The position numbers were made by a program, and so were the translations under genes. The notes under the pieces are model-generated. The model saw only the letters and a program-made list of their open reading frames with translations. It was not told the origin of the DNA and ran no database searches. 32,000 bases of DNA, taken from the NCBI RefSeq assembly GCF_003966335.1, contig NZ_CP034549.1, positions 1,980,001-2,012,000 of the forward strand. Direction: 5' to 3'. This DNA comes from Nonlabens ponticola (lineage in GTDB: Bacteria > Bacteroidota > Bacteroidia > Flavobacteriales > Flavobacteriaceae). This document shows, in pieces, positions 1,697-26,983 of this stretch (positions are counted from its first letter, which is position 1; each line of letters starts with the position of its first letter).

Positions 1697-3562
1697 TTAT
1701 CTCTTAAGCGTAAAATTTCCTGAAATTTCCTGGTTGACATAATAAATACGATACCAATAATCTGCACTGGGTAATGGCTCATTATTGATGGTACCATCCC
1801 AAAAATTATTATCAGCATCAATCAAGGCAACTAGCTTACCATAGCGATCAAAGATTTCCACTCGAGCATCGGGAAAGGATTCAATATTTCCCAGAGTCCA
1901 TGTGTCGTTGAATCCATCTCCATTAGGCGTGAAAAATTGGTCGATTCCCAATTTATTGAAAACATCGCGCACAATGACACATCCATTAGAATCTGTCACC
2001 GCGATTCTAACTTGTAAGAGGTTTGCTATTTCAATGTTATTGCTTGTTTGAAAAGGCTCCTCATTGAAGCTATACAGGAAATCACCGTCGTTGGTTACCA
2101 CAGTCAAAACATCATCTACTTCAGCTATGGATAGAATTTGTGGTACCACTACTTCTCTCACTTCAAAGGTTGCCGTATCGCTACATCCTGCATCATTAGT
2201 CACTATAACGTTATAAGTACCTGCGGTACTTACGTTGATGCTAGGTGATTGCTCACCACTACTCCACTCATAACTAGCATTCCCTGTAAACATTGGGTTG
2301 AGTTCAATTTCTTCATTGGGACAAATAAGGAATGTACCACCTGAGAGCCGTGGCTTCTCACCAATGATAAATTCAATCGCTGCTCGCTCATCGCTGATAC
2401 AACCTGTGGCTGCGTCTCGATTTTGGGCATAATAAAAGCCAGTCTCACTTACCCGTAAAGAATTACTGGCAGTAACGATAGGTGTACCACCAACTGCTTG
2501 ATCAAACCACGCCACTTCTACACCATCATTTGCCTGAACTTCCAGCAAGCCTTCTTCTCCTTCACAAACGACGACCTCGCTTTCAAGTGCAATAGGAATT
2601 GGGACTTCGGTAACTGTATATTGAAATGCTTCAGAAATATTGGCGCACTCATTACCTACTAGATTAGCCGCATCTTCGGCTATTTTGATACGGTAAAAGG
2701 TCGTTTCTTCAATCATTTCAGTGATCAATACAGGATTGTTTGCACCAGCGATGTCATCATAGTTCTCTCCATCAATACTGGATTGCCATTGATATTCTGG
2801 TGAGTCAAATACGGCTTCCTGTGTGTTGACACTTAGTTCAATGGATTCTGCCATATCGCTACCGCATCGTCCAGAGGCAATTTCACCATTTTGATCACGC
2901 AGTTCTACAGCATCGCCACAGGTTTTAAAAGTGATGTCATCTATCGCCAGATCATTACCGCAACCGCCTTCACCTTCATTAATCATTTTTAGGATACAGC
3001 CATTTTGCCCAGCGCTGGTGGTAAACGTGAGGCCATATTGTATCCAGATGGGATCATCCTCTGCAAATCGTGGTTGCATAACACCTTCAGCTAGCCTATT
3101 AGTATCGGTCGCATCCCATATCTCAAAACGCACTTGCACGGGAATCTCGATACCAGCACAAGCATTAGGTGAGCCATCCAACAAATTGATAATCCAGGCA
3201 CTGAATTCATAATTTGTATCACCACACAAACCGTTAATGGTCGTTTGAAAAAATTGATCAGGCTCAAAAGATGCATTGACAATTAGCGCCTTCCCATCTT
3301 GATCGCCAGTGTGATCGCCTACCACATGAAGACTGTTGAGTTGTCTCAAATTGCTAGAAATCGTGTATTCACCATCCTGCGTTCCCGAGTTGACAAAGCG
3401 GTAGCTGGTTTGCATACTACTCAATGGCGGCCCACTTGTGGTACCTGACCCAAACGTTTCCTTAAATATATCCTCACTGGATGCACCGGTGCAAAATCCT
3501 AGTTGCGCTTTCGCGAAAGCGGAAAAAACAACCATCATCACAACGACCAGTAAATATCTCAT
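1697..3562 (-). CDS. Secreted T9SS type-B C-terminal sorting domain protein (adhesin-like, with a jelly-roll/CBM-like N-domain and Ig-like repeats)
   Basis: Signal peptide MRYLLVVVMMVVFSAFAKA-Q. The motif GNDLAIDDITF is typical of CBM-like domains in Bacteroidota surface proteins. The C-terminus FFTPNGDGFNDTW...IFDRYGKLV...WDG...LPSADYWY is the gliding-motility/T9SS type B CTD signature. Confidence 0.85.
   Translation of the reverse strand: MRYLLVVVMMVVFSAFAKAQLGFCTGASSEDIFKETFGSGTTSGPPLSSMQTSYRFVNSGTQDGEYTISSNLRQLNSLHVVGDHTGDQDGKALIVNASFEPDQFFQTTINGLCGDTNYEFSAWIINLLDGSPNACAGIEIPVQVRFEIWDATDTNRLAEGVMQPRFAEDDPIWIQYGLTFTTSAGQNGCILKMINEGEGGCGNDLAIDDITFKTCGDAVELRDQNGEIASGRCGSDMAESIELSVNTQEAVFDSPEYQWQSSIDGENYDDIAGANNPVLITEMIEETTFYRIKIAEDAANLVGNECANISEAFQYTVTEVPIPIALESEVVVCEGEEGLLEVQANDGVEVAWFDQAVGGTPIVTASNSLRVSETGFYYAQNRDAATGCISDERAAIEFIIGEKPRLSGGTFLICPNEEIELNPMFTGNASYEWSSGEQSPSINVSTAGTYNVIVTNDAGCSDTATFEVREVVVPQILSIAEVDDVLTVVTNDGDFLYSFNEEPFQTSNNIEIANLLQVRIAVTDSNGCVIVRDVFNKLGIDQFFTPNGDGFNDTWTLGNIESFPDARVEIFDRYGKLVALIDADNNFWDGTINNEPLPSADYWYRIYYVNQEISGNFTLKR
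3506..3521. repeat. Iterated palindrome copy 1, CGCTTTCGCGAAAGCG (16 nt, perfect), inside the T9SS protein signal peptide
   Basis: Read directly. It encodes S-AFAKA-Q on the minus strand. Confidence 0.95.
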
Positions 3563-3786
3563 AGGCGACTAAGATAAACAGGAGTTGCGGATTTCAAATT
3601 GATCAGCAGAGTTTTAAGTGGCAAGCCATACTGCTGACTCATAGTCGCTTAAGTACAAATCTCAACAAGTAACTTAAATATTGCGCAATTCAAACGTCTA
3701 ACAAATGCTTAAACGATTGCTAAAGAATATCTAAAGTGCCTTTTGTTTATCAACGCTAGCGGTATCTTTAAGTAAAATAATGATTT

Positions 3787-4089
3787 ATGAACGTAGTATA
3801 TAATTACCAACACGTCACAGGCAGCCAGGAACTTGAAGCCTATACAGAAGAAAGACTTAAAACAATTTTTGAGAGATATAATTGGGTGACCCGTGCAGAT
3901 GTATTTTTTAGAAATGAGAACACGTCCAGCCGCGAGACTGGAATGATCGCCGAGATACGCTTGAGCGCTCCAGGACCACGTCTATATGCTGAAGAGTCGC
4001 ACAGCACTTTTAAAGAATCAGTTGCCAAAGTAGTGCAACAATTGAAAACGCAGTGCGAGAAGCGCAAGGCAGACATGATATCTCATTAG
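3787..4089 (+). CDS. hpf: Ribosome hibernation promoting factor / RaiA (S30EA) family protein, short form
   Basis: 100 aa. The N-terminal pattern (xxVxxxHVTGSQELEAYTEERL) and basic C-terminus are typical of HPF/RaiA short proteins. Confidence 0.6.
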   Translation: MNVVYNYQHVTGSQELEAYTEERLKTIFERYNWVTRADVFFRNENTSSRETGMIAEIRLSAPGPRLYAEESHSTFKESVAKVVQQLKTQCEKRKADMISH

Positions 4090-4092
4090 ATT

Positions 4093-4494
4093 ATGATTTC
4101 TCTTGCAACTGACGAGCGAGAAATTGTCTTGCTCTACGACTCAAACAACAAGAATCATCGAGAGATTTATGCCTATGCTGTAGCGGCCAAAAAACCGCTC
4201 AATGCTATTGACGTCAATAAGCAGCATACAACAGGAACTCAATGGAGTGAGATTGCCAACAAACTTGATAAAGACGTAAAAGACTTGATCGATACAGATC
4301 ACAGCATTTTTATCGAGAAGCATGGTAAAAAAGTAAGTCTTACTAATGATGGTGCCATCAAATTGTTGCAAAATGATCCAGAGATGCTACTTTTCCCGAT
4401 TGCTGTTCAAGGCGATAAAGCAAAGGTGCTACATCTTTACGGTGACATGACAGACTTTATTGGACCTGATACCGCAGCGGTTAACATACCATAA
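4093..4494 (+). CDS. ArsC/Spx-like thioredoxin-fold protein lacking the N-terminal catalytic Cys
   Basis: 133 aa. The C-terminal AIKLLQNDPEMLLFPIAVQGDKAKV resembles the ArsC/Spx family tail. There is no CxxC or Cys near the N-terminus. Only 3 nt separate it from the upstream hpf-like gene. Confidence 0.45.
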   Translation: MISLATDEREIVLLYDSNNKNHREIYAYAVAAKKPLNAIDVNKQHTTGTQWSEIANKLDKDVKDLIDTDHSIFIEKHGKKVSLTNDGAIKLLQNDPEMLLFPIAVQGDKAKVLHLYGDMTDFIGPDTAAVNIP

Positions 4495-4520
4495 CTATTG
4501 AATTGAATGATCTATTAAAA

Positions 4521-4550
4521 TCCAGTCTTAAAGGCTGGATTTTATTTTAT
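4521..4550 (+). terminator. Rho-independent terminator after the ArsC-like gene
   Basis: Stem TCCAGTC/GGCTGGA (7 bp including one G-U), loop TTAAA, followed by TTTTATTTTAT. Confidence 0.6.
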
Positions 4551-4566
4551 ACTAACTTGCCCTAAT

Positions 4567-7432: not shown

Positions 7433-8149
7433 TTATAAATTTTTAGTTGATTCTTCTTTAGTTAAATTTCTCATGATTCTTTCTCTTTCCTCATCATCAA
7501 TCTCAAATTGTGGCTTACCATGCAGCGGCAATAAATGTTCAAAATCTACCGAAATACTGCGCAGACTCTCACGCAGTCCTAAGTCTGCCTGCTCGCTAGC
7601 GATAGGTGGTCGCTCAAAATAGTATTCATCCTTTTCATACGGCGACCCAATCGCACTATCTCCGGTAAACAAGGCTTTATTGAATTCACAATATATAGCT
7701 ACAGATCCTTTAGTATGTCCAGGCGTATGGTAAACCTTGATACCAAATGCATCAAATACATCATTAGGTTCATCAATCGCTGCTAACTGTGTGTTGTTCT
7801 TGTCAAGTGGATGTATGTAAATCGTAGTATCCAGATCCTTGGCAATGTTGTCGACATCATCATAGGCTTGTGAAATCAAGTCTGCATGGGTTAATAATAT
7901 TGCTTTAATGTGATAACCGCTTTCGCGAAAGCGTGCAATCTCTTCCTTGTGCTCTTTTATGACCGCATCAATAAGAATAATATCATGCCTGTTCTTGTGG
8001 CGCAACATGTATCCATTACCAAAGTGGTGTACGTGCTTATCGTACTTGAGTAAAAAAGTATCTGGTAAAATCTTGACCGATTCTCCAAAAACAGCTGTTC
8101 TCAATTCATCTAGCCTGCTATAAACATCTATGCGATCTACTTGTTCCAT
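7433..8149 (-). CDS. MBL-fold metallo-hydrolase with a degenerate HxHxDH motif
   Basis: The ILIDAV, HTPGHTKGS, LFTGDS and LLPLHG motifs are present. The canonical HxHxDH position reads THADLISQ. Its stop codon directly abuts the nitroreductase ATG (TAAATG). Confidence 0.7.
   Translation of the reverse strand: MEQVDRIDVYSRLDELRTAVFGESVKILPDTFLLKYDKHVHHFGNGYMLRHKNRHDIILIDAVIKEHKEEIARFRESGYHIKAILLTHADLISQAYDDVDNIAKDLDTTIYIHPLDKNNTQLAAIDEPNDVFDAFGIKVYHTPGHTKGSVAIYCEFNKALFTGDSAIGSPYEKDEYYFERPPIASEQADLGLRESLRSISVDFEHLLPLHGKPQFEIDDEERERIMRNLTKEESTKNL
7918..7933. repeat. Iterated palindrome copy 2, CGCTTTCGCGAAAGCG, inside the MBL-fold gene
   Basis: Read directly. It encodes A-RFRES-G. Confidence 0.95.
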
Positions 8150-8241: not shown

Positions 8242-10803
8242 TTAGGCAGAGTTGCGGCTAGCGTTAATATTGCCATAAAGAGATCTGGTCACCATCTTTT
8301 CATAAATCTCTCGTTGATCATTATTAGTATCACCCATTTCTTGAATTCGCTTTAGAGCAAATTGCTGTATAGTAAGCAACGGTAACACGATGTTTTCACG
8401 TGCCATGATACTCGCCTTTCCTGCTGGTTCATTTTCCATCAATTCGTTCATACCAGATAGTTCCAACATAAGTTTTTTGGTACGTTGATACTCTTCAAAA
8501 ATCATGGTCCAGAATGCACCATACTCTTTGTCGTCTTTCATATAACTAGTTAAACCAAAGAATGACTTAGTCAAACTCATCATACTGTTATTCAATAGCG
8601 TACGGAAAAACTTTGAGTTAGTATAGAGATCCTCTATAGCAGCCCATTTACCATTATTTTTCATTTTTTCAAGTGCTGTTCCTACGCCATAAAATCCTGG
8701 TACATTTTGCTTGAGCTGACTCCAGGATCCTACAAAGGGTATGGCTCGCAGGTCCTTAAATCGTAGCTCGCTATTACCACCACGTTTACTAGGACGACTG
8801 CCTATGTTTGTTTTTGCATAATATTTGAGCGTGCTCATATGCTCTAGATACGGCAAGAATTTATCATGCTGTTTAAAAGCCGTGTAGGCGTCATAACTAT
8901 GTTGTGATAATTCATCCATAGTTGCGCTATCTGCATCAGTAAAGTCATTGGCCTTGCTATCATAAATAGCGTTTGAAACACCACTACTCAATAGTTGCTC
9001 TAGATTGTATTGGCAACTTTCTAGTGTACCAAATTTTGAGCTTATCGTTTGTCCTTGAACAGTCAACTGTATTTGCTTTGACTCAATCTTGCTACCCATG
9101 GATGCATAAAATTCATGCGTTTGTCCACCACCACGAGCTGGTGGCCCACCACGACCGTCAAAGAAGATTACCTCAATGCCATGCTCTCGTGATACGGCTG
9201 TCAATGCTTCTTTTGCCTTGTAAATACTCCAATTAGCCATTAAGTATCCACCATCCTTGGTGCCATCACTAAAACCTAGCATAATATGCTGTTGCTCGCC
9301 ACGACGCTTTACGTGGTTGCGATAATTCTCATTAGAATACAACTGCCTCATCACATCTGGCGCAGCCTTTAGATCTGGCACCGTTTCAAAAAGTGGTACG
9401 ACATCGACGCTAGGTTTGTGCAAACCGCATAGTTGTAGCATCGCATAGGCTTGCACGATGTGTTCTACGTTTTGGGTATTTGAAATGATATAACGATGAC
9501 ATGCACGCTCACCATTGAGTTCTTGAATCTGCTTGATAGCTTTGATGCTACCAATAGTTTTTCTTGTATTCTCACTCTCAAAATCCTCTTCCTGCAGCTT
9601 ACCTGTCAAGGTAGTCAGATGGTTTAATCTTTGCTCTATGGGTAATTCCAGATAGTTGGATGGTAGTTTCGCTTTCGCGAAAGCAAACATATCATCAAAA
9701 ACTAATTCATGGATACTGCTGTCCTGCCTGATATCCAGCGCAGAGAAATGCAGTCCGAACAGCTCGATCTTATTGATGAGTGACTGCAACTTATCTGCAA
9801 ATAAGCCATTGTGTTTCTCATCTACCGTTTCCTTGATATCGCGTAATTTTTCCTGTAATTCCTGAGCAGTGAAGTTTAAAGTGCCTCTTTTCTCAATCGC
9901 TTGATATAACTGATGTTCCAGCTTCTTAAGAGGTTGTTCAACACCTGAAAATGTCAATCTGCGAGAGAGTTTGCGCAGATCACGGTAGTAATTTTTAATA
10001 ATGGTACTGCGCAACTTATGAGCCACGTCTAGTGTTATTTGCGTGGTCACAAATGGGTTGCCATCACGATCACCACCTGGCCAGAAGCCTACCTCAATCA
10101 GCTGATTTTTAAAATCAATGTTATTGGGAAGATTAGATTTTACGTAATCGTATATATTACCAATGGCGTGATAAAAGATATTCTCCAGATACCAGACGAG
10201 ACTCGTTGCCTCGTCAAACGGTGTGGGCTTTTCTTTTTTAAAAAATGGTGTCTTACCTAATTGCGCTAGTAATAACTTGACCTCTTTGATGTCATTTTTA
10301 CTCACGGCAGCGCTCAAATCATTTATAATTCCCAGTACTGATCCCGGATAGAATTGTGTAGGGTGTGCCGTCAGTACGGGCTTGATCTTAAGTTCCTTGA
10401 GATAATTGACTAATTCTTGTTCTTTTTGCAGCGCCTGTGCTTCTTCTTTAATGCTGCGCAGCGTACCGCGACCATCCAGATTTTGAACGGTTGCAAATGC
10501 AGCATCTTCTATCGCATCAAAAAGTACTACCTGACGTTCAATATATTGTATGAACCTGAATAGTTGCTGCTCGCGTTCTTGCTGCGTTGCCTCTCGCATG
10601 TAGCTGTCAAAGAAGAATTCTACAATTTCTGCAGGATTTTTTCCTCGATCAAAACCATCACGACATATCTGGCTAAAGAGCGGCAACAAGCCACCGGTAT
10701 TAGAAATTTTATCAAAAGGCAGCGTCATGAAAATACCATTGAATATCTGGTATTTTGAGGCTACTTCGTTCTCGAATCGTTGTAGTTTAGGTAATCTTGC
10801 CAT
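8242..10803 (-). CDS. ppc: Phosphoenolpyruvate carboxylase
   Basis: 853 aa with VLTAHPTQF, GFSDGTKDGGY and FFDGRGGPPARGGG signatures, and a C-terminal ...NINASRNSA-type tail. Confidence 0.95.
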   Translation of the reverse strand: MARLPKLQRFENEVASKYQIFNGIFMTLPFDKISNTGGLLPLFSQICRDGFDRGKNPAEIVEFFFDSYMREATQQEREQQLFRFIQYIERQVVLFDAIEDAAFATVQNLDGRGTLRSIKEEAQALQKEQELVNYLKELKIKPVLTAHPTQFYPGSVLGIINDLSAAVSKNDIKEVKLLLAQLGKTPFFKKEKPTPFDEATSLVWYLENIFYHAIGNIYDYVKSNLPNNIDFKNQLIEVGFWPGGDRDGNPFVTTQITLDVAHKLRSTIIKNYYRDLRKLSRRLTFSGVEQPLKKLEHQLYQAIEKRGTLNFTAQELQEKLRDIKETVDEKHNGLFADKLQSLINKIELFGLHFSALDIRQDSSIHELVFDDMFAFAKAKLPSNYLELPIEQRLNHLTTLTGKLQEEDFESENTRKTIGSIKAIKQIQELNGERACHRYIISNTQNVEHIVQAYAMLQLCGLHKPSVDVVPLFETVPDLKAAPDVMRQLYSNENYRNHVKRRGEQQHIMLGFSDGTKDGGYLMANWSIYKAKEALTAVSREHGIEVIFFDGRGGPPARGGGQTHEFYASMGSKIESKQIQLTVQGQTISSKFGTLESCQYNLEQLLSSGVSNAIYDSKANDFTDADSATMDELSQHSYDAYTAFKQHDKFLPYLEHMSTLKYYAKTNIGSRPSKRGGNSELRFKDLRAIPFVGSWSQLKQNVPGFYGVGTALEKMKNNGKWAAIEDLYTNSKFFRTLLNNSMMSLTKSFFGLTSYMKDDKEYGAFWTMIFEEYQRTKKLMLELSGMNELMENEPAGKASIMARENIVLPLLTIQQFALKRIQEMGDTNNDQREIYEKMVTRSLYGNINASRNSA
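9671..9684. repeat. Iterated palindrome copy 3, GCTTTCGCGAAAGC (14-nt core), inside ppc
   Basis: Read directly. It encodes F-AFAKA-K. Confidence 0.95.
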
Positions 10804-11107: not shown

Positions 11108-11149
11108 GATTCTTATTCTTGCCAGCAAGATAGCATTCTATTTGTAAGA

Positions 11150-13826: not shown

Positions 13827-14267
13827 TCAGCCTTTCAGGATCATGCCGCTTAGGAATCCTTCGGCTATTTTTTGTTCATTCTCATCGAGCATTTGCACAG
13901 CAACCTTGAGTTTATTGAATTTAAAATATTCTTTCCTAGCACTAACAATCACGGTCGTATTAGGTAGTACCAGATTAATAAAATTAACGTGAGCCTCTGT
14001 AAAGACAAATTGTGGCTTTATCGCTCTTTCCTTGACAAGATGGCTGCCCAGACAGGCCAGTCCAATTTGCGCCATACATTCTTGCAGGATGACTCCAGGC
14101 GTTACAGGTTTGGTATTAAAATGGTGTTTGTAGAAGTATTCGCTTTCGCGAAAGCGGTACACGCCAATTACATGGTCGTTAGATAGCTCCAATATCTTAT
14201 CGACAAACTTAAAACCATCACCGTAAGGCAAGTTGGCTACAATTTTATCGTGGTCATCAAGAATCAT
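13827..14267 (-). CDS. FabA/FabZ-like 3-hydroxyacyl-ACP dehydratase (hotdog fold)
   Basis: YFYKHHFNTKPVTPGVILQECMAQ matches the FabZ catalytic motif (HF..P.PGV...E..AQ). 146 aa. Confidence 0.85.
   Translation of the reverse strand: MILDDHDKIVANLPYGDGFKFVDKILELSNDHVIGVYRFRESEYFYKHHFNTKPVTPGVILQECMAQIGLACLGSHLVKERAIKPQFVFTEAHVNFINLVLPNTTVIVSARKEYFKFNKLKVAVQMLDENEQKIAEGFLSGMILKG
14141..14156. repeat. Iterated palindrome copy 4, CGCTTTCGCGAAAGCG, inside the dehydratase gene
   Basis: Read directly. It encodes Y-RFRES-E, about 6 codons before the catalytic HHF motif. Confidence 0.95.
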
Positions 14268-14275
14268 AGGTGTAG

Positions 14276-16104: not shown

Positions 16105-16804
16105 TAATCGGGATCTCCCATATATAACGGAACGACCACTTCCATGTCAATCGGTCATTGGTAATACTGCATTTATCGGCATATCTCTTAAAGTCTGAAC
16201 GCTTAAATCCTGATGCAATAGAGATAAGTCCATCATGCCTAGAAATACGATGCTTGATAAAAATAGGACTAAAAAACTTAAAGAAATAGAATGCAAGAAT
16301 ATTCCTATGCAAGTCATTGATGATGATTCTAGTACTTGTAATCTCTTGAAATTTGTTGAGAAATTTCGGTATTTGTTCTTCATTAAAATGGTGCAATGTC
16401 AACGTACATAGCATGATATCGCAATTCAATTGTTCTGGTGGTGTTTTGAGAATATCGCTTTCGCGAAAGCTAATACGTGAATAATTCTTACACTTCTCAC
16501 GAGCATTTGAAATAGATTTAGTGCTCAAATCAACTCCTATGTAATCAATATTATCATGTGCCAAATGATCACTTAAATATCGCAACATAGCACCGTCGCT
16601 GCAACCCAGGTCGATAATCGTGTAAGAGTCTTTTGGATTATTTTGAAGAGCTTTCTTGACAGCATTAAGTGTAAACTTATAACCACCTAGATACGTATTT
16701 ACTTTGTTAACGTCATTTACAGCATGACGCAGCTGCTCTTGGCTAATGCTGGGATCGTCCATCATTTCAGGCAATGTACTGCGCTTACTCGAACTATATA
16801 TCAT
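16094..16804 (-). CDS. Class I SAM-dependent methyltransferase
   Basis: Motif I IIDLGCSDGAM, with motif post-I/II spacing (YIGVDLS). Overlaps the T3PKS start by 11 nt. Confidence 0.85.
   Translation of the reverse strand: MIYSSSKRSTLPEMMDDPSISQEQLRHAVNDVNKVNTYLGGYKFTLNAVKKALQNNPKDSYTIIDLGCSDGAMLRYLSDHLAHDNIDYIGVDLSTKSISNAREKCKNYSRISFRESDILKTPPEQLNCDIMLCTLTLHHFNEEQIPKFLNKFQEITSTRIIINDLHRNILAFYFFKFFSPIFIKHRISRHDGLISIASGFKRSDFKRYADKCSITNDRLTWKWSFRYIWEIPINER
16457..16470. repeat. Iterated palindrome copy 5, GCTTTCGCGAAAGC, inside the methyltransferase gene
   Basis: Read directly. It encodes I-SFRES-D. Confidence 0.95.
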
Positions 16805-17916: not shown

Positions 17917-17956
17917 TACTCAAAGATAGTGGTAAGCAAACTTAAATGAGGTTCAA

Positions 17957-18175: not shown

Positions 18176-18238
18176 AGCTATAGTTTTAAATGGTTACTTA
18201 GGGGCTGCGTAAAAATAGCAAATGCAACCTGTAAAAAT

Positions 18239-20224
18239 TTAATACTCCAGCAGTTTTTTTACAGCAATTTCTAGCTTTTGTTTAGGTAAATACTGATTTT
18301 CTAATCCTTTTTCAAAAGGTATAGGCGTATCTATACTACCTAACCTCATTACTGGAGCATCTAGACTTTCAAAACAGTGTTCACCTATCCATGCCGCTAT
18401 ATCACTAGCAACACTACCTGTAAGGTTATCCTCACATAGTACAATAACCTTACCCGTTTTCAATACACTTGTCTCAATGGCTTCATAGTCTAGAGGCTGC
18501 AAACACCTTAAGTCAACTAAATCGATATCGTAGTGCATTTTATCGATTATTTCTAATACCCAATGAACGCAGGCACCATAGGTGATGACGGTTAACGCTT
18601 CACCTTTGTTAATTATCTTGGCTTTTCCTAGTTCGATTTTATACGATCCTTGCGGTACATCGCCATAAACAGAACGATACAATGCCTTATGCTCAAAAAA
18701 TAAGACTGGATTAGGATCTTCAATAGCTGCTTGTAATAAACCCTTGGCGTCGTCTGGAAATGCAGGGTAAACAATCTTGAGTCCAGGAATCGTGTAGAAC
18801 CAAGCCTCATTTGATTGTGAATGGAATGGCCCAGCGCCAACGCCAGCACCACACGGCATCCTTATAACGACATCTGCTGGCTGTGACCAGCGGTAATGTG
18901 ATTTGGCTAGATAATTTACAATAGGATTAAATCCACTACTAACAAAGTCTGCAAATTGCATCTCTACAACGGCTTTCATTCCTGCGATGCTCAAACCCAT
19001 TCCAGTCTCGACTACAGCGCTCTCACAAATAGGTGTATTACGCACTCGATCTGCGCCAAATTCTTCTAGAAATGCCTCGGTTATCTTGAAAACACCACCG
19101 TAGTCAGCGATATCTTGTCCCATAAGAACCAAATCAGGAAATTTACGCATGGATTCCAGCAAACCATCTCGTATCGCGTCGATAAGTCGGATATTGGTGA
19201 TGGAGTTACTAGGTTCACTTGCAGTAAAGCTATATGGTGCGTACACATCATTTATTTCTTGCTCGATGGTTGATGATGGTAACGCTTTCGCGAAAGCGGT
19301 ATCCAAACCATCATTAATATGCTGTTTAAATTCTTGTGTAAAATCATCAATCATCATACAAGTGAGCATTCCTTGATCAAGCAACTGATCTTCTAATCGA
19401 CTGATTGGGTCAAGCGTTTCCCAATGAGCTATAAGGTCATCAGGAACGTATGCAGTACCACTGGCTTCCTCATGTCCACGACGCCTAAAGGTTTTAAATT
19501 CTAGCAGCACCGGTCGCGGATTTTCTCGAATATCCTCGAGAAGCTTACGAACCTGATGATAAACCTGCAGTACATCGTTACCGTCGATTATACGAGACTC
19601 CATGCCGTAACCCACTGCCCTATCTGCAAGATCCTTGCAAGCGTATTGCTGGCTGGTAGGCGTACTCAAACCGTAACCATTATTTTCAATACAAAACATA
19701 ACGGGCAATTGCCACACACTTGCAATGTTTAGCGCTTCATGAAAGTCGCCTTCGCTTGTGCCGCCTTCACCGGTAAAAACGATGGTCGCTTTTTTCTCGG
19801 CTCGTATTTTGTGAGCTAGGGCAATTCCATCTGCGACACCCATTTGCGGTCCTAGATGAGAAATCATCCCAATGATTTTGTGCTCTTGAGATCCAAAATG
19901 AAAACTGCGATCGCGACCCTTAGTAAACCCATCTGCCTTTCCTTGCCATTGTGCAAAAAGCTTCCATAACGGAATATCTCTAGTTGTAAAAACGCCCAGA
20001 TTGCGATGCATGGGTAGTATGTACTCATCGTCATTTGCTGCCATGGTCACACCTACTGAAATTGCTTCTTGCCCAATACCAGAGAACCACTTGGATATTT
20101 TTCCTTGTCTCAATAGAATGAGCATCTTCTCCTCTATCAATCGAGGCAGCAGCATTGCTTTATATAATGCTAGTTGCTGGTCGTGTGAAACCACAGACGA
20201 GCGTTCTTGATGAGTTTGTTGCAT
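18239..20224 (-). CDS. 2-oxoacid (branched-chain/pyruvate-type) dehydrogenase E1 component, fused alpha/beta subunits, TPP-dependent
   Basis: 661 aa. The N-terminal half carries the E1-alpha TPP motif GEGGTSEGDFHEALN...NNGYG. The C-terminal half is an E1-beta/transketolase-like pyrimidine-binding region (DRVRNTPICESAVV...PCGAG..GPFHSQS). Confidence 0.88.
   Translation of the reverse strand: MQQTHQERSSVVSHDQQLALYKAMLLPRLIEEKMLILLRQGKISKWFSGIGQEAISVGVTMAANDDEYILPMHRNLGVFTTRDIPLWKLFAQWQGKADGFTKGRDRSFHFGSQEHKIIGMISHLGPQMGVADGIALAHKIRAEKKATIVFTGEGGTSEGDFHEALNIASVWQLPVMFCIENNGYGLSTPTSQQYACKDLADRAVGYGMESRIIDGNDVLQVYHQVRKLLEDIRENPRPVLLEFKTFRRRGHEEASGTAYVPDDLIAHWETLDPISRLEDQLLDQGMLTCMMIDDFTQEFKQHINDGLDTAFAKALPSSTIEQEINDVYAPYSFTASEPSNSITNIRLIDAIRDGLLESMRKFPDLVLMGQDIADYGGVFKITEAFLEEFGADRVRNTPICESAVVETGMGLSIAGMKAVVEMQFADFVSSGFNPIVNYLAKSHYRWSQPADVVIRMPCGAGVGAGPFHSQSNEAWFYTIPGLKIVYPAFPDDAKGLLQAAIEDPNPVLFFEHKALYRSVYGDVPQGSYKIELGKAKIINKGEALTVITYGACVHWVLEIIDKMHYDIDLVDLRCLQPLDYEAIETSVLKTGKVIVLCEDNLTGSVASDIAAWIGEHCFESLDAPVMRLGSIDTPIPFEKGLENQYLPKQKLEIAVKKLLEY
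19283..19298. repeat. Iterated palindrome copy 6, CGCTTTCGCGAAAGCG, inside the E1 gene at the alpha/beta junction region
   Basis: Read directly. It encodes T-AFAKA-L. Confidence 0.95.
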
Positions 20225-21430: not shown

Positions 21431-22483
21431 TTAATTTTTAAGCGATTCCATATCAATTACAAATCGATATTTCACATCGCTATCAGTAACACGATCAAAT
21501 GCAGTATTGATCTCTTGCATGTCGATCATTTCTACATCACAAACAATGTTATTCTCACCGCAAAAGTCTAGCATCTCTTGAGTTTCTTTGATACCGCCAA
21601 TGAGTGATCCTGCAATTGACTTGCGACCCATGATGATGTTACCACCGTTCATAGGCTCAAGTGGCTCAATAGCACCTACCATGACCATGGTCGCATCTCT
21701 ACCTAGCAGTTGCAAGTATGGATTAACATCGTGCTTTACTGGTACAGTATTCAAGATGAAGTCAAAAGTGCCACGATGCTTTTTCATTTGCTCGTCGTCC
21801 TTTGAAATAAGAACGCCGTCTGCTCCTAGTCTTTTGGCATCATCTGCTTTTTCTGGTGATGTTGTGATCATGATGGTTTCTGCACCCATAGCGGCTGCAA
21901 ACTTAATTCCCATGTGACCCAAACCGCCTAAACCTACCACACCTACTTTATCACCTTTTTTAATCTTCCAGTGATTAAGTGGTGAGAACGTTGTGATACC
22001 AGCACATAATAAAGGTGCGACTGCTTTGATGTCAAGATTGGTTGGGATCTTGAGAACAAAATGCTCTCTTACCGTAACGCTGGTCGAATAACCACCAAAA
22101 GTATGACCACCCAGGTGTTTGTCTTTACCATTATAAGTTCCTACCATACCATTCTCGCAAAATTGCTCAAGATCATCCTCGCATGCGCTACAGGATAAAC
22201 ATGAGTCCACCATACAACCTACACCAACTAGATCGTCCACTTTAAAGTCAGTAACCTTGTCACCTACCTCTACTACCTTACCAACGATCTCGTGACCTGG
22301 AACGATTGGATATTTTGCATTACCCCAATCGTTGCGTGCCGCATGAATATCGCTGTGACAAACACCACAGTATAAGATATCAATCTTGACATCATTATCA
22401 TTGAGTTCGCGACGTTCGATCGTCATCTCTTTTAAATCTGCATGCTCATCTTGAGCGCCGTATGCTTTAATAGTACTAGACAT
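21431..22483 (-). CDS. Zn-dependent NAD(P) alcohol dehydrogenase (cinnamyl-ADH/YahK-like MDR)
   Basis: GVCHSDIH catalytic Zn motif, structural Zn Cys cluster CLSCSACEDDLEQFC and GLGGLGHMG Rossmann motif. Confidence 0.9.
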   Translation of the reverse strand: MSSTIKAYGAQDEHADLKEMTIERRELNDNDVKIDILYCGVCHSDIHAARNDWGNAKYPIVPGHEIVGKVVEVGDKVTDFKVDDLVGVGCMVDSCLSCSACEDDLEQFCENGMVGTYNGKDKHLGGHTFGGYSTSVTVREHFVLKIPTNLDIKAVAPLLCAGITTFSPLNHWKIKKGDKVGVVGLGGLGHMGIKFAAAMGAETIMITTSPEKADDAKRLGADGVLISKDDEQMKKHRGTFDFILNTVPVKHDVNPYLQLLGRDATMVMVGAIEPLEPMNGGNIIMGRKSIAGSLIGGIKETQEMLDFCGENNIVCDVEMIDMQEINTAFDRVTDSDVKYRFVIDMESLKN

Positions 22484-22552: not shown

Positions 22553-22566
22553 GCTTTCGCGAAAGC
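22553..22566. repeat. Iterated palindrome copy 7 (intergenic), GCTTTCGCGAAAGC, preceded by TTGTTAC
   Basis: Read directly. It lies 21 nt upstream of the ATG at 22588 and 69 nt from the divergent ADH start. Confidence 0.95.
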
Positions 22567-22587: not shown

Positions 22588-22935
22588 ATGAAACTACTTG
22601 AGATACTCACCTATTTTTCTGCTATATCTTTCTTTTTCTTTGGAATAACTTGTCTGGTGACGCCGCATATGAAACTGGAATTTACCAGATTTGGCTTGAC
22701 GACACGACAGCGTCAACTAACAGGTGTACTGCAGTTAATAGGTGCCGCTGGGTTGTTATTCTACCAGTATAACATTGTAGTGACGATGGCCGCAGCGGCT
22801 GGACTATCATTACTCATGCTTTTAGGATTCTATGTGCGTCTTAAAATCAAAGACAGCATCTATCAAAGCTCGCCTGCATTGATCTATATGTTGCTTAACG
22901 CGTTGATAGTTTTCCAGATCTGGCAAGGTCTCTAG
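22588..22935 (+). CDS. DoxX-like small membrane protein
   Basis: 115 aa with 4 TM helices. EFTRFGL...GVLQLIGAAGLL...GLSLLMLLGFYVRLKIKD...PALIY follows the DoxX-like pattern and is homologous by eye to the next gene. Confidence 0.55.
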   Translation: MKLLEILTYFSAISFFFFGITCLVTPHMKLEFTRFGLTTRQRQLTGVLQLIGAAGLLFYQYNIVVTMAAAAGLSLLMLLGFYVRLKIKDSIYQSSPALIYMLLNALIVFQIWQGL

Positions 22936-26279: not shown

Positions 26280-26284
26280 TTATT

Positions 26285-26608
26285 ATGGATTTAAAAGATC
26301 AACTTAAGAACCTATTTCCAGAGCACGAGGTGCCAGAAACGCCACTAGAGGAAAAAAGTAATGTATGGATGCAGGACGACCCGTTAGAATGCAGATTTGA
26401 AAAACGCAAGGGAAAAGTCAACACCATCATCGCTGGCTACACAGGTGCAACTGCTGACTTTAAAATTTTGGCCAAAGAACTGAAAACAAACCTAGGTGTA
26501 GGCGGTAGTTTTAAAAATGATCAGATAATCATTCAAGGTGATTATCGTGATAGAATAATGGAATTACTCAAGGAGAAAGGTTTTAAAGTCAAACGTGTAG
26601 GTGGCTAA
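26285..26608 (+). CDS. SUI1/YciH-family translation initiation factor-like protein
   Basis: 107 aa. KRKGKVNTIIAGY...LAKELKTNLGVGGSFKNDQIIIQGDYRDRIMELLKEKGFKVKRVG is the SUI1 fold signature. Confidence 0.85.
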   Translation: MDLKDQLKNLFPEHEVPETPLEEKSNVWMQDDPLECRFEKRKGKVNTIIAGYTGATADFKILAKELKTNLGVGGSFKNDQIIIQGDYRDRIMELLKEKGFKVKRVGG

Positions 26609-26612
26609 AACT

Positions 26613-26641
26613 AAAAAACCACGCTGTCTAGCGTGGTTTTT
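26613..26641. terminator. Bidirectional rho-independent terminator
   Basis: Stem CCACGCT/AGCGTGG extended by A/T pairs, loop GTCT, with an A-run upstream and a T5 run downstream. Confidence 0.8.
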
Positions 26642-26662
26642 CAATATATATTAATCGGTAGT

Positions 26663-26851
26663 TTATAATGTACCGTTTTTCTCTTCTAGCTCCTTACGTT
26701 TTGCTTCCTTTTTCATTTTACGCTTCTCTAGCGCAACACCAGTAATCCAATATGGAATAGCAAATGCTGTCAAGAATATCATTAACCAAAATCCCAAGGT
26801 CAATATTCCCAAAAATGCTAGAAATCCTAAGTACTGATCAAATTCGAACAT
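26663..26851 (-). CDS. Small membrane protein with a Lys/Glu-rich tail. Start trimmed to MFEFDQYL.
   Basis: 62 aa with two TM helices followed by KRKMKKEAKRKELEEK. Coding status is uncertain. Confidence 0.4.
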   Translation of the reverse strand: MFEFDQYLGFLAFLGILTLGFWLMIFLTAFAIPYWITGVALEKRKMKKEAKRKELEEKNGTL

Positions 26852-26963
26852 AACAAATCGTTTAAGTCCTGCAAAGATAAGGGCTTTGAGCAAGAATCAA
26901 AATGTGCGTAGAGCATTTATTCACAAAAAAATGATGAAATATGTTAATAAGGCTTGTGATTGT

Positions 26964-26983
26964 TACGCTTTCGCGAAAGCGTA
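26964..26983. repeat. Iterated palindrome copy 8 (intergenic), the longest form, TACGCTTTCGCGAAAGCGTA (20 nt, perfect)
   Basis: Read directly. It lies 86 nt upstream of the fumC ATG and shares the left flank TTGTTAC with copy 7. Confidence 0.95.

What the first reader, a model, noticed from the sequence alone, without database searches (positions are those of the whole stretch)
3506..26983. Hyper-iterated perfect palindrome (core GCTTTCGCGAAAGC): 8 copies in 32 kb, 6 of them inside unrelated genes
The 14-mer GCTTTCGCGAAAGC occurs at 3506-3521, 7918-7933, 9671-9684, 14141-14156, 16457-16470, 19283-19298, 22553-22566 and 26964-26983. Four copies are the 16-mer CGCTTTCGCGAAAGCG and one is the 20-mer TACGCTTTCGCGAAAGCGTA. 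For an AT-rich sequence, a specific 14-mer with 8 G/C should appear far less than once in 32 kb. My rough hand estimate is of order 1e-4 expected copies, so chance is excluded. Sequence identity stops at the palindrome edges, so these are not fragments of a larger dispersed repeat, MITE or IS end. Six copies lie inside functionally unrelated CDSs: the T9SS surface protein, the MBL hydrolase, ppc, the hotdog dehydratase, the methyltransferase and the E1 dehydrogenase. That placement is unlike REP/BIME-type elements, which are intergenic. The nearest conceptual analogues are cyanobacterial HIP1 (GCGATCGC), the DNA uptake sequences of Neisseria and Pasteurellaceae, and the in-frame Rickettsia palindromic elements. 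I know of no described function for this motif. The centre contains TCGCGA/CGCG, so possible roles include a methylation or restriction-type target, a binding site for a dimeric protein, an uptake or recombination signal, or a cruciform/RNA hairpin (ACGCUUU-CGCG-AAAGCGU).
Basis: partly seen in the sequence, partly recalled or inferred. Interest (0 to 1): 0.85.

Follow-up and report, generated by a model that had tools for sequence, protein, structure and literature searches.

The report
Hyper-iterated palindromic genome tag in Flavobacteriaceae
A 14-16-base palindrome occurs about every 3,000 bases in the genomes of the marine bacteria Nonlabens and Dokdonia, even inside genes, and has stayed letter-perfect while the surrounding genes diverged, so it is a selected DNA signal that behaves like the 'self-DNA' tags other bacteria use for DNA uptake and recombination.

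Summary
GCTTTCGCGAAAGC occurs 8 times in the window, which is Nonlabens ponticola; 2e-5 to 2e-4 copies are expected. The motif is not local. It is hyper-abundant, about 1 per 3 kb, across Nonlabens and Dokdonia, and absent from 1.13 Mb of other Flavobacteriaceae. The invariant core is TTTCGCGAAA and the consensus is TTAC-GCTTTCGCGAAAGC-GTAA. About 70% of copies lie in CDS, in all three frames (AFAKA, xFRES, LSRK). They arise by substitution, not insertion. Orthologues with 47-81% protein identity keep the motif nucleotide-perfect: 0/364 core mismatches against 28% in the flanks. Copies repel each other: none lies within 500 bp, 14 lie within 1.5 kb where 66 are expected, and the gap CV is 0.44. 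Each arm carries about 25 nt of strand-asymmetric flank, C-poor and G/T-rich 5' of the site. In one-sided Dokdonia copies the skewed flank sits only beside the intact arm. Prophage-like contigs carry the motif at a lower density. Nonlabens phage P12024S has none. I found no paper that mentions the motif. The best reading is a flavobacterial counterpart of cyanobacterial HIP1 and of uptake-signal sequences: a selected, dimer-recognised self-DNA tag, probably acting in DNA uptake and/or recombination. The function is inferred, not shown.

The parts
3507..3520 (.). Copy 1. 16-mer CGCTTTCGCGAAAGCG in the T9SS-sorted protein gene (1697-3562, minus strand), codons 15-19 AFAKA at the end of the signal peptide.
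   Evidence: Nucleotide-perfect in the orthologues of L201, L202 and L204, whose proteins are 47-61% identical.
7919..7932 (.). Copy 2. 16-mer in the MBL-fold hydrolase gene (7433-8149, minus strand), codons RFRES at about aa 73.
   Evidence: Conserved in L203 and L204 at about 60% protein identity.
9671..9684 (.). Copy 3. 15-mer, with the extension on one side only, in ppc (8242-10803, minus strand). Codons AFAKA at aa 374, in a variable linker.
   Evidence: Present in one Nonlabens subclade. Absent without a clean indel in N. xiamenensis, N. spongiae and Dokdonia.
14142..14155 (.). Copy 4. 16-mer in the FabZ/ApeI-like hotdog dehydratase gene (13827-14267, minus strand), codons RFRES at aa 38.
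   Evidence: Dokdonia encodes TFSRES at this position with different codons.
16457..16470 (.). Copy 5. 15-mer in the SAM-dependent methyltransferase gene (16094-16804, minus strand), codons SFRES at aa 112.
19284..19297 (.). Copy 6. 16-mer in the fused E1 alpha/beta dehydrogenase gene (18239-20224, minus strand). Codons AFAKA at aa 310, in the inter-domain linker.
   Evidence: AFAKA is present in 66 of the 120 listed homologues, including all ten named Nonlabens species. A subset of Dokdonia instead has xFRES 25 aa downstream, and no sequence has both.
22553..22566 (.). Copy 7. Intergenic, TAC-GCTTTCGCGAAAGC-TAA. It lies in the 104-bp divergent region between the alcohol dehydrogenase gene (21431-22483, minus strand) and the ORF at 22588-22935 (plus strand).
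   Evidence: Not terminator-like.
26967..26980 (.). Copy 8. Intergenic, the 20-mer palindrome TACGCTTTCGCGAAAGCGTA (26964-26983). It lies 89 bp upstream of fumC (27069-28463, plus strand) and 359 bp downstream of the yciH/SUI1 gene.
   Evidence: The ssDNA fold gives -8.6 kcal/mol. Not terminator-like.

Best explanation
**What is shown.** The eight copies belong to a genome-wide, lineage-specific DNA-level signal of Nonlabens and Dokdonia (Flavobacteriaceae).

- The invariant core is TTTCGCGAAA. It is extended by GC(G) on both sides in Nonlabens and on at least one side in Dokdonia. The consensus is TTAC-GCTTTCGCGAAAGC-GTAA.
- New copies arise by base substitution wherever the local sequence tolerates the motif: variable protein linkers, signal-peptide ends and intergenic DNA.
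- Copies are then held nucleotide-perfect by selection, or by a selection-like drive.
- Copies sit about 3 kb apart and are strongly excluded from each other's neighbourhood.
- The element is built of two directional half-units fused head to head. Each half-unit is about 25 nt of C-poor, G/T-rich flank, followed by (TTA)CGC and then TTTCG.

**What is inferred.** The palindromic core is probably read on double-stranded DNA by a dimeric, highly sequence-specific protein. I think the site works as a 'self-DNA' tag for genetic exchange, as the flavobacterial counterpart of cyanobacterial HIP1 and of proteobacterial uptake signal sequences. It would favour uptake and/or processing of conspecific DNA, and it would define where 3'-ended single strands are generated. 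On each side of the site, the strand that ends 3' at the site is the G/T-rich, C-poor one. That is the composition RecA-type recombinases prefer and that surrounds Chi. Under this reading the centre, CGCG/TCGCGA, is probably methylated.

**Confidence split.** About 0.9 that this is a selected HIP/DUS-like DNA signal. About 0.35-0.4 that its role is self-recognition in uptake or recombination.
For: **Abundance and lineage**
- The window has 8 copies against about 1e-4 expected.
- Of 120 genome blocks returned for the word, 85 are Dokdonia, Nonlabens or unnamed Flavobacteriaceae MAGs, many with 2-3 copies per 8 kb.
- Loci chosen through ppc or E1 rather than through the motif have 32 core sites in 122 kb (Nonlabens) and 21 in 67 kb (Dokdonia). 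Other Flavobacteriaceae have 1 in 1.13 Mb.

**DNA-level maintenance**
- Core mismatches are 0/364 in the 26 directional pairs of motif-bearing orthologues. Near flanks differ at 28% and farther sequence at 31% (alignments).
- AFAKA is encoded by motif DNA in 15/15 cases and FRES in 14/14. The 1.13 Mb control has 0 AFAKA and 1 FRES.
- Perfect: 1-mismatch: 2-mismatch counts are 30:0:3 in unbiased loci.

**Substitution origin in tolerant positions**
- The ppc copy lies in a variable linker.
- A gain in the KAS gene is gap-free.
- In the E1 linker, the AFAKA site (Nonlabens-type) and the xFRES site (seen in named Dokdonia strains) are mutually exclusive.
- Some copies sit at signal-peptide ends, and coding copies are biased towards the 5' part of genes.

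**Regular spacing**
- No neighbour lies within 500 bp, and 14 lie within 1.5 kb where 66 are expected (P = 9e-15). The mean gap is 3.06 kb with CV 0.44.

**Flank asymmetry tied to function**
- In the 5' flank, C is 0.10 against a background of 0.19, with G and T enriched. This holds in coding copies of every frame and in intergenic copies.
- Chance copies in other taxa and other viruses lack the skew.
- In 26 one-sided copies the skew exists only beside the intact arm.

**Behaviour on mobile DNA**
- Prophage-like contigs carry the motif at about 1 per 10 kb or lower, including inside head-protease genes.
- Nonlabens phage P12024S/L has none, and it avoids CGCG.

**Literature parallels**
- HIP1 is conserved by selection and periodically spaced (PMC5861425).
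- HIP1 boosts natural transformation in a methylation-dependent, Chi-like way (bioRxiv 10.1101/2024.09.10.611283; 10.64898/2026.06.24.733823).
- USS/DUS lie 34-65% in ORFs, at poorly conserved residues, inflate their cognate peptides, and fall sharply in frequency from perfect to one mismatch (PMC2817400, PMC1939737).
- RecA prefers TGG-type G/T-rich ssDNA resembling Chi (PMC3763553).
- Natural competence exists in Flavobacteriaceae, in Riemerella (PMC8383284, PMC7965970).
Against: - No experiment or sequence evidence here shows uptake, cleavage, binding or methylation at the site.
- Natural competence is not reported for Dokdonia or Nonlabens, and Flavobacterium johnsoniae was not competent (PMC7965970).
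- Known DUS/USS are 9-12 nt and non-palindromic. Chi sites are 5-8 nt, asymmetric and co-oriented with replication. This motif is 14-22 bp and symmetric.
- No partner protein, competence gene or DNA methyltransferase was found in the window or the fetched loci.
- Regular spacing and strict conservation fit a chromosome-architecture site equally well.
- The G/T-rich flank could have a mutational cause rather than a selective one.
Confidence: 0.4

Rival explanations
1. Architectural site. The palindrome is the binding site of a clade-specific nucleoid-associated or ParB/Noc-like dimer. Its roughly 3-kb lattice organises the chromosome through looping, topology or condensin loading. The flanks would be the protein's extended footprint.
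For: - The core is an exact palindrome, and covariation extends the symmetry only to positions ±1 and ±2.
- Spacing is strongly regular with an exclusion zone.
- Individual sites are conserved over long periods.
- Arm and flank are coupled, as expected if each monomer has its own footprint.
- HIP1 periodicity has been read in the same way (PMC5861425).
Against: - Known architectural palindromes (parS, NBS, matS, SBS; own knowledge) have tens of copies, not an extrapolated 700-900, and do not invade coding sequence at this rate.
- Site positions are not conserved between the two genera.
- A keto/amino strand skew over 25 nt is an odd footprint for a duplex binder.
- No candidate protein is known.
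Confidence: 0.25
2. Repair by-product. The word accumulates neutrally because a methyltransferase acting on CGCG/TCGCGA, together with a very-short-patch-type or other sequence-directed mismatch repair, biases conversion towards the motif. This is the older proposal for HIP1. Nick-translation patches would produce the flank skew.
For: - The centre is CGCG/TCGCGA.
- The Nonlabens phage avoids CGCG 5-fold, along with GGCC and CCGG, which suggests CGCG-specific restriction-modification in the hosts.
- The 25-nt scale of the skew is close to the length of a short repair patch (the patch length is own knowledge).
- HIPs are linked to orphan methyltransferases (PMC4390886).
Against: - TCGCGA and CGCG outside the motif occur at or below expectation in the hosts.
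- Specificity spans 10-16 bp, longer than any methyltransferase or Vsr site.
- A mutational bias predicts neither mutual exclusion within 1.5 kb, nor a lack of one-off intermediates, nor zero copies in a phage that replicates in these hosts.
- For HIP1, conservation argued for selection rather than biased repair (PMC5861425).
Confidence: 0.1
3. Single-strand hairpin signal for replication. On the lagging-strand template the palindrome folds into a hairpin. Each strand contains GCGAAAGC, known as an unusually stable DNA mini-hairpin (own knowledge, Hirao et al.). The hairpin would serve as a primase or PriA entry site or as a fork-restart site, roughly every Okazaki-fragment length or two.
For: - The consensus 22-mer folds as ssDNA at -7.3 kcal/mol.
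- Positions -1/+1 and -2/+2 covary (z = 2.8 and 3.3).
- The motif is orientation-independent, and spacing is regular at 2-4 kb.
- Flanks that lack C on one side and G on the other cannot form G-C pairs within themselves, so they would not compete with the hairpin.
Against: - One-sided Dokdonia copies keep only a 3-5-bp stem yet are retained and spaced like full copies.
- There is no copy-specific stem extension beyond ±2.
- The 14-mer alone is weak as a hairpin, -2.1 kcal/mol with z = -0.2.
- Sequence-specific chromosomal priming hairpins have no precedent.
Confidence: 0.08
4. Mobile or selfish repeat. The copies are miniature REP/REPIN-like or MITE-like elements spread by a RAYT or IS200-type transposase (note TTAC 5' of the core). 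Alternatively they are in-frame insertions like Rickettsia palindromic elements.
For: - The layout is a short palindrome preceded by a conserved tetranucleotide (TTAC/GTAA), superficially like REP with its GTAG head.
- There are hundreds of copies.
- Copies occur in prophages.
Against: - About 70% of copies are inside CDS, in all frames.
- Presence versus absence is gap-free or lies within variable linkers, with no target duplication and no fixed inserted length.
- Copies stay at orthologous positions across deep divergence.
- Copies repel rather than cluster.
- Flanks differ in sequence between copies.
Confidence: 0.03
5. Gene-level function. The motif acts as a peptide (AFAKA/FRES), an mRNA hairpin, a transcription terminator or a transcription-factor operator.
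For: - About a fifth of frame-0 copies double as signal-peptide ends...AFAKAQ.
- Sites are enriched in intergenic DNA and in the 5' part of genes.
Against: - All three frames and both gene orientations are used, and the peptides differ between frames.
- Synonymous positions are frozen.
- No copy has a terminator tail, and the window has no Rfam match.
- The host genes are functionally unrelated.
- A copy number of hundreds is too high for an operator.
Confidence: 0.02

Closest known systems
HIP1 (GCGATCGC), the highly iterated palindrome of cyanobacteria
   Same: Both are palindromic words over-represented by orders of magnitude, and both occur inside and between genes. Both are conserved between orthologues by selection rather than by coding constraint and show non-random spacing. 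Both have a centre that looks like a methylation or restriction site. For HIP1 the function was long unknown and is now linked to natural transformation and Chi-like stimulation (PMC5861425, PMC4390886, bioRxiv 10.1101/2024.09.10.611283).
   Different: The sequence and the phylum differ. This motif has a 10-bp invariant core and a 14-22 bp consensus, against 8 bp for HIP1. Its density is lower, about 1 per 3 kb against up to more than 1 per gene. It shows kb-scale mutual exclusion rather than 10-90 kb periodicity. It has directional, strand-asymmetric flanks of about 25 nt and one-sided variants, which the HIP1 papers I consulted do not mention. Cognate methyltransferases are not identified here.
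DNA uptake signal sequences (USS of Pasteurellaceae, DUS of Neisseriaceae)
   Same: Both are lineage-specific words shared by related genera and present in hundreds to thousands of copies. Both have many copies in ORFs, in tolerant and poorly conserved positions, and both inflate their cognate peptides. Both fall sharply in frequency from perfect to one mismatch. Both are rarer in recently acquired DNA. Both consist of a core plus a one-sided compositional flank that forms a directional unit (PMC2817400, PMC1939737, PMC7811141).
   Different: USS and DUS are 9-12 nt and non-palindromic. Biased uptake and the ComP/type IV pilus receptors are demonstrated for them. No uptake data exist here, and competence is unknown in these genera. 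In Nonlabens two units are fused into one symmetric site.
Chi (crossover hotspot instigator) sites
   Same: The density is about one per 3-5 kb. Both are tolerated in coding sequence and both would act as a 'self' mark. The G/T-rich context lies on the strand that would become the 3' tail (PMC3763553; own knowledge for Chi density).
   Different: Chi is 5-8 nt, asymmetric, read on ssDNA by RecC or AddB, and co-oriented with replication. Individual Chi sites are not conserved at orthologous positions over deep divergence. This motif is palindromic, and its one-sided copies in L325 show mixed orientation.
REP/BIME/REPIN elements with RAYT transposases
   Same: Both are short palindromes with a conserved flanking tetranucleotide, present in hundreds of copies per genome.
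   Different: REPs are extragenic, imperfect, often clustered or paired, and spread by insertion. This motif is mostly intragenic and exact, its copies exclude each other, and it arises by substitution.
Rickettsia palindromic elements (RPE)
   Same: Both are palindromic repeats found inside protein-coding genes without destroying them.
   Different: RPEs are 100-150 bp insertions that add a peptide segment. Here no length change accompanies gain or loss.
Dimer-bound chromosomal palindromes (parS, Noc-binding site, matS, SlmA site)
   Same: Both are 12-16 bp perfect or near-perfect palindromes read by a dimer and distributed along the chromosome.
   Different: Those sites number from a few to tens of copies and are regionally restricted (own knowledge). 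This motif has an extrapolated 700-900 copies at a regular spacing.

Membership tests
Highly iterated palindromes (HIP; type member HIP1) | A short palindromic word over-represented by orders of magnitude relative to compositional expectation, genome-wide | tested here: met
   The window has 8 copies against 2e-5 to 2e-4 expected. There are 53 core sites in 189 kb of loci not chosen by motif, against 1 in a 1.13 Mb control. Whole-genome counts were not obtainable.
Highly iterated palindromes (HIP; type member HIP1) | Occurs both within and between ORFs, in several reading frames | tested here: met
   Of 143 pooled copies, 96 are coding (52 AFAKA, 24 xFRES, 20 LSRK), 33 are intergenic and 14 are ambiguous.
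Highly iterated palindromes (HIP; type member HIP1) | Sites conserved between related genomes beyond what coding constraint explains | tested here: met
   Core mismatches are 0/364, against 28-31% in the flanks. Synonymous positions are frozen.
Highly iterated palindromes (HIP; type member HIP1) | Cognate (orphan) DNA methyltransferases recognising the inner sequence | not testable with these tools
   No complete genome or methylome was available. The only hint is indirect: CGCG avoidance in Nonlabens phage P12024S.
Highly iterated palindromes (HIP; type member HIP1) | The sequence GCGATCGC in cyanobacteria | tested here: not met
   The word is different and the phylum is Bacteroidota. The motif can only be a new HIP, not HIP1.
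DNA uptake signal sequences (USS/DUS) | Competent cells preferentially take up DNA carrying the motif | not testable with these tools
   This needs uptake or transformation assays. Competence is known in Riemerella only (PMC8383284, PMC7965970).
DNA uptake signal sequences (USS/DUS) | Lineage-specific hyper-abundance with copies in tolerant coding positions and inflated cognate peptides | tested here: met
   Compare PMC2817400.
DNA uptake signal sequences (USS/DUS) | More even spacing than random, and lower density in recently acquired DNA | tested here: met
   There is an exclusion zone and the gap CV is 0.44. Prophage-like contigs carry about 1 per 10 kb or fewer, and the lytic-type phage carries 0.
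DNA uptake signal sequences (USS/DUS) | A short (9-12 nt), non-palindromic, oriented core | tested here: not met
   The core is a 10-bp palindrome and the usual form is a 14-16-bp palindrome. One-sided 12-mers (TTTCGCGAAAGC) do exist in Dokdonia.
Chi sites | A 5-8 nt asymmetric sequence co-oriented with replication | tested here: not met
   The motif is palindromic. The one-sided copies in L325 point both ways.
Chi sites | Attenuates RecBCD/AddAB nuclease and stimulates RecA loading | not testable with these tools
   The only support is the G/T-rich 5' flank, which is suggestive (PMC3763553).
REP/REPIN (RAYT-mobilised) | Extragenic location | tested here: not met
   Six of the 8 window copies, and about 67-77% of pooled copies, are in CDS.
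REP/REPIN (RAYT-mobilised) | Clusters or inverted doublets, and spread by insertion | tested here: not met
   No neighbour lies within 500 bp. Gain is gap-free.
MITE / Rickettsia palindromic element | A fixed-length inserted unit, with terminal repeats or a target duplication for MITEs, that appears as an indel against empty sites | tested here: not met
   Empty orthologous sites have the same length (KAS, hotdog, MT, E1) or lie in a length-variable linker (ppc).
Intrinsic transcription terminator | A G+C-rich hairpin followed by a T/U tract | tested here: not met
   None of the 8 copies is called by the scan. The 3' flank is A/C-rich, not T-rich.

The most novel reading that the evidence does not exclude
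Nonlabens and Dokdonia may possess a previously unknown genome-marking system, built on a 16-22-bp palindrome made of two directional half-units. Each half-unit is a specific arm plus about 25 nt of C-free, G/T-rich flank. The palindrome is installed and policed at about 3-kb intervals, even within essential genes. It would act as the recognition or cleavage point of a dedicated dimeric enzyme that generates RecA-ready 3' tails on both sides. That would make it the first uptake/recombination 'self' signal in Bacteroidota, mechanistically distinct from DUS, USS, Chi and HIP1.
Probability: 0.3. Interest if true: 0.9.

Novelty: new variant of a known kind. Interest (0 to 1): 0.8.

Why it matters
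Hyper-abundant genomic words with demonstrated or suspected roles in self-recognition are known from only a few lineages: Pasteurellaceae, Neisseriaceae and cyanobacteria.

- This would add an ecologically important marine clade. Dokdonia and Nonlabens are model proteorhodopsin flavobacteria (own knowledge).
- The example is unusually clean. The word is long enough that every copy is unambiguous, the half-unit architecture is resolved, and a spacing rule is visible even in 20-kb loci.
- It shows how strongly a DNA signal can reshape a proteome. AFAKA and FRES peptides exist almost only as its translation.
- It offers a direct handle for experiments (pull-downs, methylome, transformation assays) on an open question: what are highly iterated palindromes for?
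- Practically, adding the motif to donor DNA might make these hard-to-engineer marine Flavobacteriia transformable, as HIP1 does for cyanobacteria.

Tried and rejected
- **Organism look-up.** An exact-protein look-up of the fumC ORF found nothing. The organism was identified through ppc instead.
- **Metagenome scan.** The single metagenome scan with ppc returned only distant Flavobacteriaceae at 55-61% identity. I used these loci as a negative control rather than as orthologues.
- **Long imperfect hairpin or extended inverted repeat.** Rejected. Arm-to-arm complementarity exceeds chance only at ±1 and ±2. Native flanks fold barely better than chimeric flanks, -7.94 against -7.70 kcal/mol.
- **Terminator or RNA family.** Rejected.
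- **MITE, RPE or REP insertion.** Rejected.
- **Peptide-level selection.** Rejected.
- **A short inner restriction or methylation site as the driver.** TCGCGA and CGCG outside the motif are not enriched.
- **Other iterated palindromes ('dialects') in other Flavobacteriaceae.** No other 12-mer palindrome recurred in the control loci.
- **A secondary sequence motif in the flanks.** Only modest GATG/GATGA enrichment appeared, probably from C-free codons. The 3-nt periodicity of T in the flanks is largely a codon-position effect of frame-0 copies, so I did not use it as evidence for a RecA or AAA+ filament.
- **Cross-genus conservation of individual sites.** Not found. Site positions are genus-specific.
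- **Literature.** The motif string, HIP with Flavobacteria, Dokdonia/Nonlabens with palindromes, and Dokdonia methylome all returned nothing.
- **Partner protein.** I could not search for one because no complete genome was accessible.

Full report
**1. Observation**

The 14-mer GCTTTCGCGAAAGC occurs exactly eight times in the window, at 3507, 7919, 9671, 14142, 16457, 19284, 22553 and 26967. It occurs 0 times in 100 dinucleotide-preserving shuffles, and the window has no 1- or 2-mismatch variant. Markov models of order 0-5, trained on related DNA with the motif masked, predict 2e-5 to 2e-4 copies per 32 kb. Five copies are the 16-mer CGCTTTCGCGAAAGCG, and one of these is the 20-mer TACGCTTTCGCGAAAGCGTA.

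Six copies lie in minus-strand genes: a T9SS-sorted protein, an MBL-fold hydrolase, ppc, a FabZ/ApeI-like hotdog protein, a SAM methyltransferase and a fused E1 alpha/beta dehydrogenase. Three are read as AFAKA and three as (R/S)FRES. Two copies are intergenic.

**2. Where the motif occurs**

The ppc protein is 100% identical to that of Nonlabens ponticola, on a 2.87-Mb contig (taxonomy). I scanned one genome per species (GTDB) for the 14-mer.

- 85 blocks come from Dokdonia, Nonlabens, strain BBFL7 or unnamed Flavobacteriaceae MAGs, and many hold 2-3 copies.
- The remaining blocks are mostly singletons from unrelated, mostly G+C-rich taxa, as chance predicts.
- 1.13 Mb of ppc loci from other Flavobacteriaceae (55-61% ppc identity) contains no copy at all and no other recurrent 12-mer palindrome.
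- Loci fetched through ppc or E1, so not chosen by motif, contain 6, 7, 2 and 7 copies per 22.5 kb in four other Nonlabens species, and 4, 2 and 5 copies in Dokdonia sinensis, an unnamed metagenome-assembled relative (L324) and Dokdonia sp. Asnod3-C12.

The same word in dozens of independent assemblies rules out an artefact.

**3. The real unit**

I pooled 145-166 copies. Position -1 is C in 83-84% of copies and +1 is G in 81-84%. The consensus continues as TTAC...GTAA.

The inner 10-mer TTTCGCGAAA is the invariant part.

| Source | Length | 10-mer sites | Full 14-mers | One-sided |
|---|---|---|---|---|
| Nonlabens loci | 122 kb | 32 | 30 | 2 |
| Dokdonia loci | 67 kb | 21 | 11 | 10 |
| Control Flavobacteriaceae | 1.13 Mb | 1 | 0 | not scored |

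'One-sided' means the GC(G) extension is present on one side only.

Beyond the consensus, about 25 nt on each side show a strand-asymmetric composition. The 5' flank is C-poor (0.10 against 0.19 background) and enriched in T and G. The 3' flank is the mirror image, G-poor and A/C-rich. This holds for coding copies in each frame and in either gene orientation, and for intergenic copies. It is absent from chance copies in other taxa and other viruses.

In the 26 one-sided copies the skewed flank is present only next to the intact arm (C 0.106, T 0.407). Next to the truncated arm the composition is background (C 0.175, T 0.30). The element is therefore two directional half-units fused head to head. 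Each half-unit is a C-poor flank, then (TTA)CGC, then TTTCG. The flank composition is maintained together with its arm, so it is not a relic.

**4. Not a mobile insertion, and not a peptide or RNA signal**

*No insertion.* In ppc the motif sits in a length-variable linker, where Dokdonia sinensis has ...NAKAE.... In the KAS gene of Nonlabens sp. YIK11 the motif replaces PEFEAAL with SAFAKAL without any length change. The empty site in the window matches the 14-mer at 8 of 14 bases. At the hotdog and methyltransferase sites, Dokdonia encodes TFSRES and TFSRQN with different codons and the same length.

*Independent gains in one linker.* I examined the 120 listed E1 homologues at the inter-domain linker.

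- 66 carry AFAKA at about aa 310, including all ten named Nonlabens species.
- 19 carry xFRES 25 residues downstream instead, including the named Dokdonia strains that have a site. DNA confirms the motif in Dokdonia sp. Asnod3-C12.
- None carries both, and 35 carry neither.

*No peptide or RNA role.* All three frames are used, at 52:24:20 copies. Every AFAKA (15/15) and every FRES (14/14) in clade loci is encoded by motif DNA, out of 256 and 144 possible encodings respectively. The 1.13-Mb control has 0 AFAKA and 1 FRES. So the peptides are by-products of the DNA word. About a fifth of frame-0 copies double as signal-peptide ends (...AFAKAQ), and coding copies are biased towards the 5' part of genes. 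No copy resembles an intrinsic terminator, and the window has no Rfam match.

*No long hairpin.* Complementarity between the arms exceeds chance only at ±1 and ±2 (z = 2.8 and 3.3). Native flanks fold only marginally better than chimeric flanks.

**5. Maintenance**

In the 26 directional pairs of motif-bearing orthologous copies that could be aligned among Nonlabens species, the core shows 0 mismatches in 364 positions. The adjacent 24-nt flanks differ at 28% and farther sequence at 31%. Host proteins are only 47-81% identical. Of the alignable sites, only one differs in presence between species.

Perfect copies outnumber one-off variants 30:0 in unbiased loci and 137:13 in the sampled blocks. 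Three-mismatch words are at background frequency. The signal is therefore very sharp, and each site is long-lived within a genus. Site positions differ between the two genera.

**6. Spacing**

With the 10-mer core (14-mer version):

- No copy has a neighbour within 500 bp.
- 14 neighbours fall within 1.5 kb, where 66 are expected from the rate beyond 2 kb (Poisson P = 9e-15).
- In loci not selected by motif, the 33 gaps average 3.06 kb with CV 0.44. A random process gives CV 1.
- Counting the one-sided Dokdonia copies fills what looked like long gaps.

**7. Mobile DNA**

A scan of viral contigs gave mostly chance singletons. Several contigs with portal, major-capsid, protease and terminase genes carry 2-3 copies each, with the typical C/G extension and C-poor flanks. 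Some of these copies are inside head-protease genes. The density is about 1 per 10 kb or lower.

The cultured Nonlabens phages P12024S and P12024L (35.7 kb) have no copy even at 2 mismatches, where host density predicts about 10. These phages strongly avoid GGCC (0 observed against 35 expected), CCGG (2 against 34) and CGCG (9 against 44). This suggests host restriction-modification systems, one of which probably acts on the CGCG at the motif centre.

A general mutational bias of the host replication or repair machinery would be expected to leave some trace in such a phage. Slow accumulation on resident chromosomal DNA fits the data better.

**8. Interpretation**

*Shown.* This is a selected, lineage-specific DNA-level signal. 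It has a dimer-like symmetric core, directional half-units, regular spacing, a substitutional origin in tolerant positions, and a lower density on recently acquired DNA.

These are the population-genomic hallmarks of two known groups of signals.

- Uptake signal sequences have many copies in ORFs, at poorly conserved residues. They inflate their cognate peptides, fall sharply from perfect to one mismatch, and have a core plus a one-sided flank (PMC2817400, PMC1939737, PMC7811141).
- HIP1 is conserved by selection and non-randomly spaced (PMC5861425). It is now reported to raise natural transformation in a methylation-dependent, partly Chi-like manner and to co-vary with DNA-uptake genes (bioRxiv 10.1101/2024.09.10.611283 and 10.64898/2026.06.24.733823).

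*Inferred.* The strand that would end 3' at the site is G/T-rich and C-poor on both sides. RecA prefers this composition, and it surrounds Chi (PMC3763553). My best mechanistic guess is a self-DNA tag acting in uptake and/or recombination, read by a dimeric protein and possibly methylated at CGCG. Natural competence exists in the family, in Riemerella, but is untested in these genera (PMC8383284, PMC7965970).

*Rivals.* The main rival is a regularly spaced binding site for a chromosome-organising protein. A methylation/repair by-product, a replication hairpin, a mobile repeat and a gene-level function are progressively less compatible with the data. Details are in the rival explanations.

**9. 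Novelty**

No paper in the searchable library contains the motif or describes an iterated palindrome in Flavobacteria. I classify it as a new variant of a known kind, a highly iterated palindrome or uptake-signal-like word. It has three features that the HIP1, USS and DUS papers I consulted do not describe:

- a 10-bp invariant core with a 14-22 bp consensus;
- half-unit architecture with strand-asymmetric flanks;
- a kb-scale exclusion zone.

**Limits**

- Genome-wide numbers are extrapolated from about 0.9 Mb of sampled loci.
- ORF calls in pooled loci were heuristic.
- No partner protein, methylation or function was tested.

Noticed in passing
L325:8550, 14251, 19536, 20290, 21223; L323:16377, 20468, 21186; L324:8814, 9745: Dokdonia genomes have a 'dialect'. 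About half of their sites keep TTTCGCGAAA but carry the GC(G) extension on one side only (TTTCGCGAAAGC). Nonlabens sites are almost all symmetric. The one-sided copies fill the gaps in the 3-kb lattice and have the skewed flank on the intact side only.
   Followed up: yes
window 18239-20224 (E1 gene, aa ~310); L325:11013: In the E1 alpha/beta linker, Nonlabens carries the motif in frame 0 (AFAKA). Some Dokdonia carry it 75 nt downstream in frame 1 (xFRES). No sequence among the 120 listed has both. These are independent gains in the same tolerant linker.
   Followed up: yes
L326 and L327 (Nonlabens phages P12024S/L, JQ823122/JQ823123): These phages almost completely avoid GGCC (0 observed, 35 expected), CCGG (2 against 34) and CGCG (9 against 44), and each encodes a DNA methyltransferase. 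This points to several 4-base restriction systems in the host, one of which overlaps the motif centre.
   Followed up: partly
L226, L240, L257, L293, L318/L321, L282, L290 (IMG/VR contigs): Prophage-like contigs with portal, capsid, protease and terminase genes carry 2-3 copies of the motif each, some inside head-protease genes. I did not determine whether they are integrated prophages of Dokdonia or Nonlabens.
   Followed up: partly
window 10856-20224: A conserved biosynthetic cluster lies on the minus strand and is syntenic in Nonlabens and Dokdonia. It contains an acyl-carrier protein, a ketoacyl synthase, an ApeI-like hotdog dehydratase, an SDR, a type III PKS/FabH-like enzyme, a methyltransferase, an FAD-dependent halogenase-like enzyme and the fused E1 dehydrogenase. 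It resembles flexirubin or aryl-polyene type loci. Three of the eight palindromes lie in it.
   Followed up: no
window 3507-3520 and pooled loci (for example L015:5484, L026:4855, L057:5241, L089:1667, L103:3355): About one fifth of frame-0 copies coincide with the C-terminal end of N-terminal signal peptides (...AFAKAQ / ...AFAKAYSQQ). The DNA word has been accommodated in the AFA-type signal-peptidase region.
   Followed up: partly
all copies, both strands: Each strand of the motif contains GCGAAAGC. I recall this as an extraordinarily stable DNA mini-hairpin (Hirao et al., own knowledge). Every one-sided Dokdonia copy retains it on one strand. Its significance is unknown.
   Followed up: no
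control loci L121-L200 (for example L133, L191): The 12-mer palindrome TTACAATTGTAA occurs 17 times across 15 of the ppc loci from other Flavobacteriaceae. It may be a conserved operator or a coding word near ppc.
   Followed up: no
L203 (Nonlabens xiamenensis), whole 22.6 kb: This species has a markedly lower density than its congeners: 2 full copies plus 1 one-sided copy. It also holds a symmetric double variant, GCTTTGGCCAAAGC, at 911. This suggests lineage-specific weakening or change of the signal.
   Followed up: no
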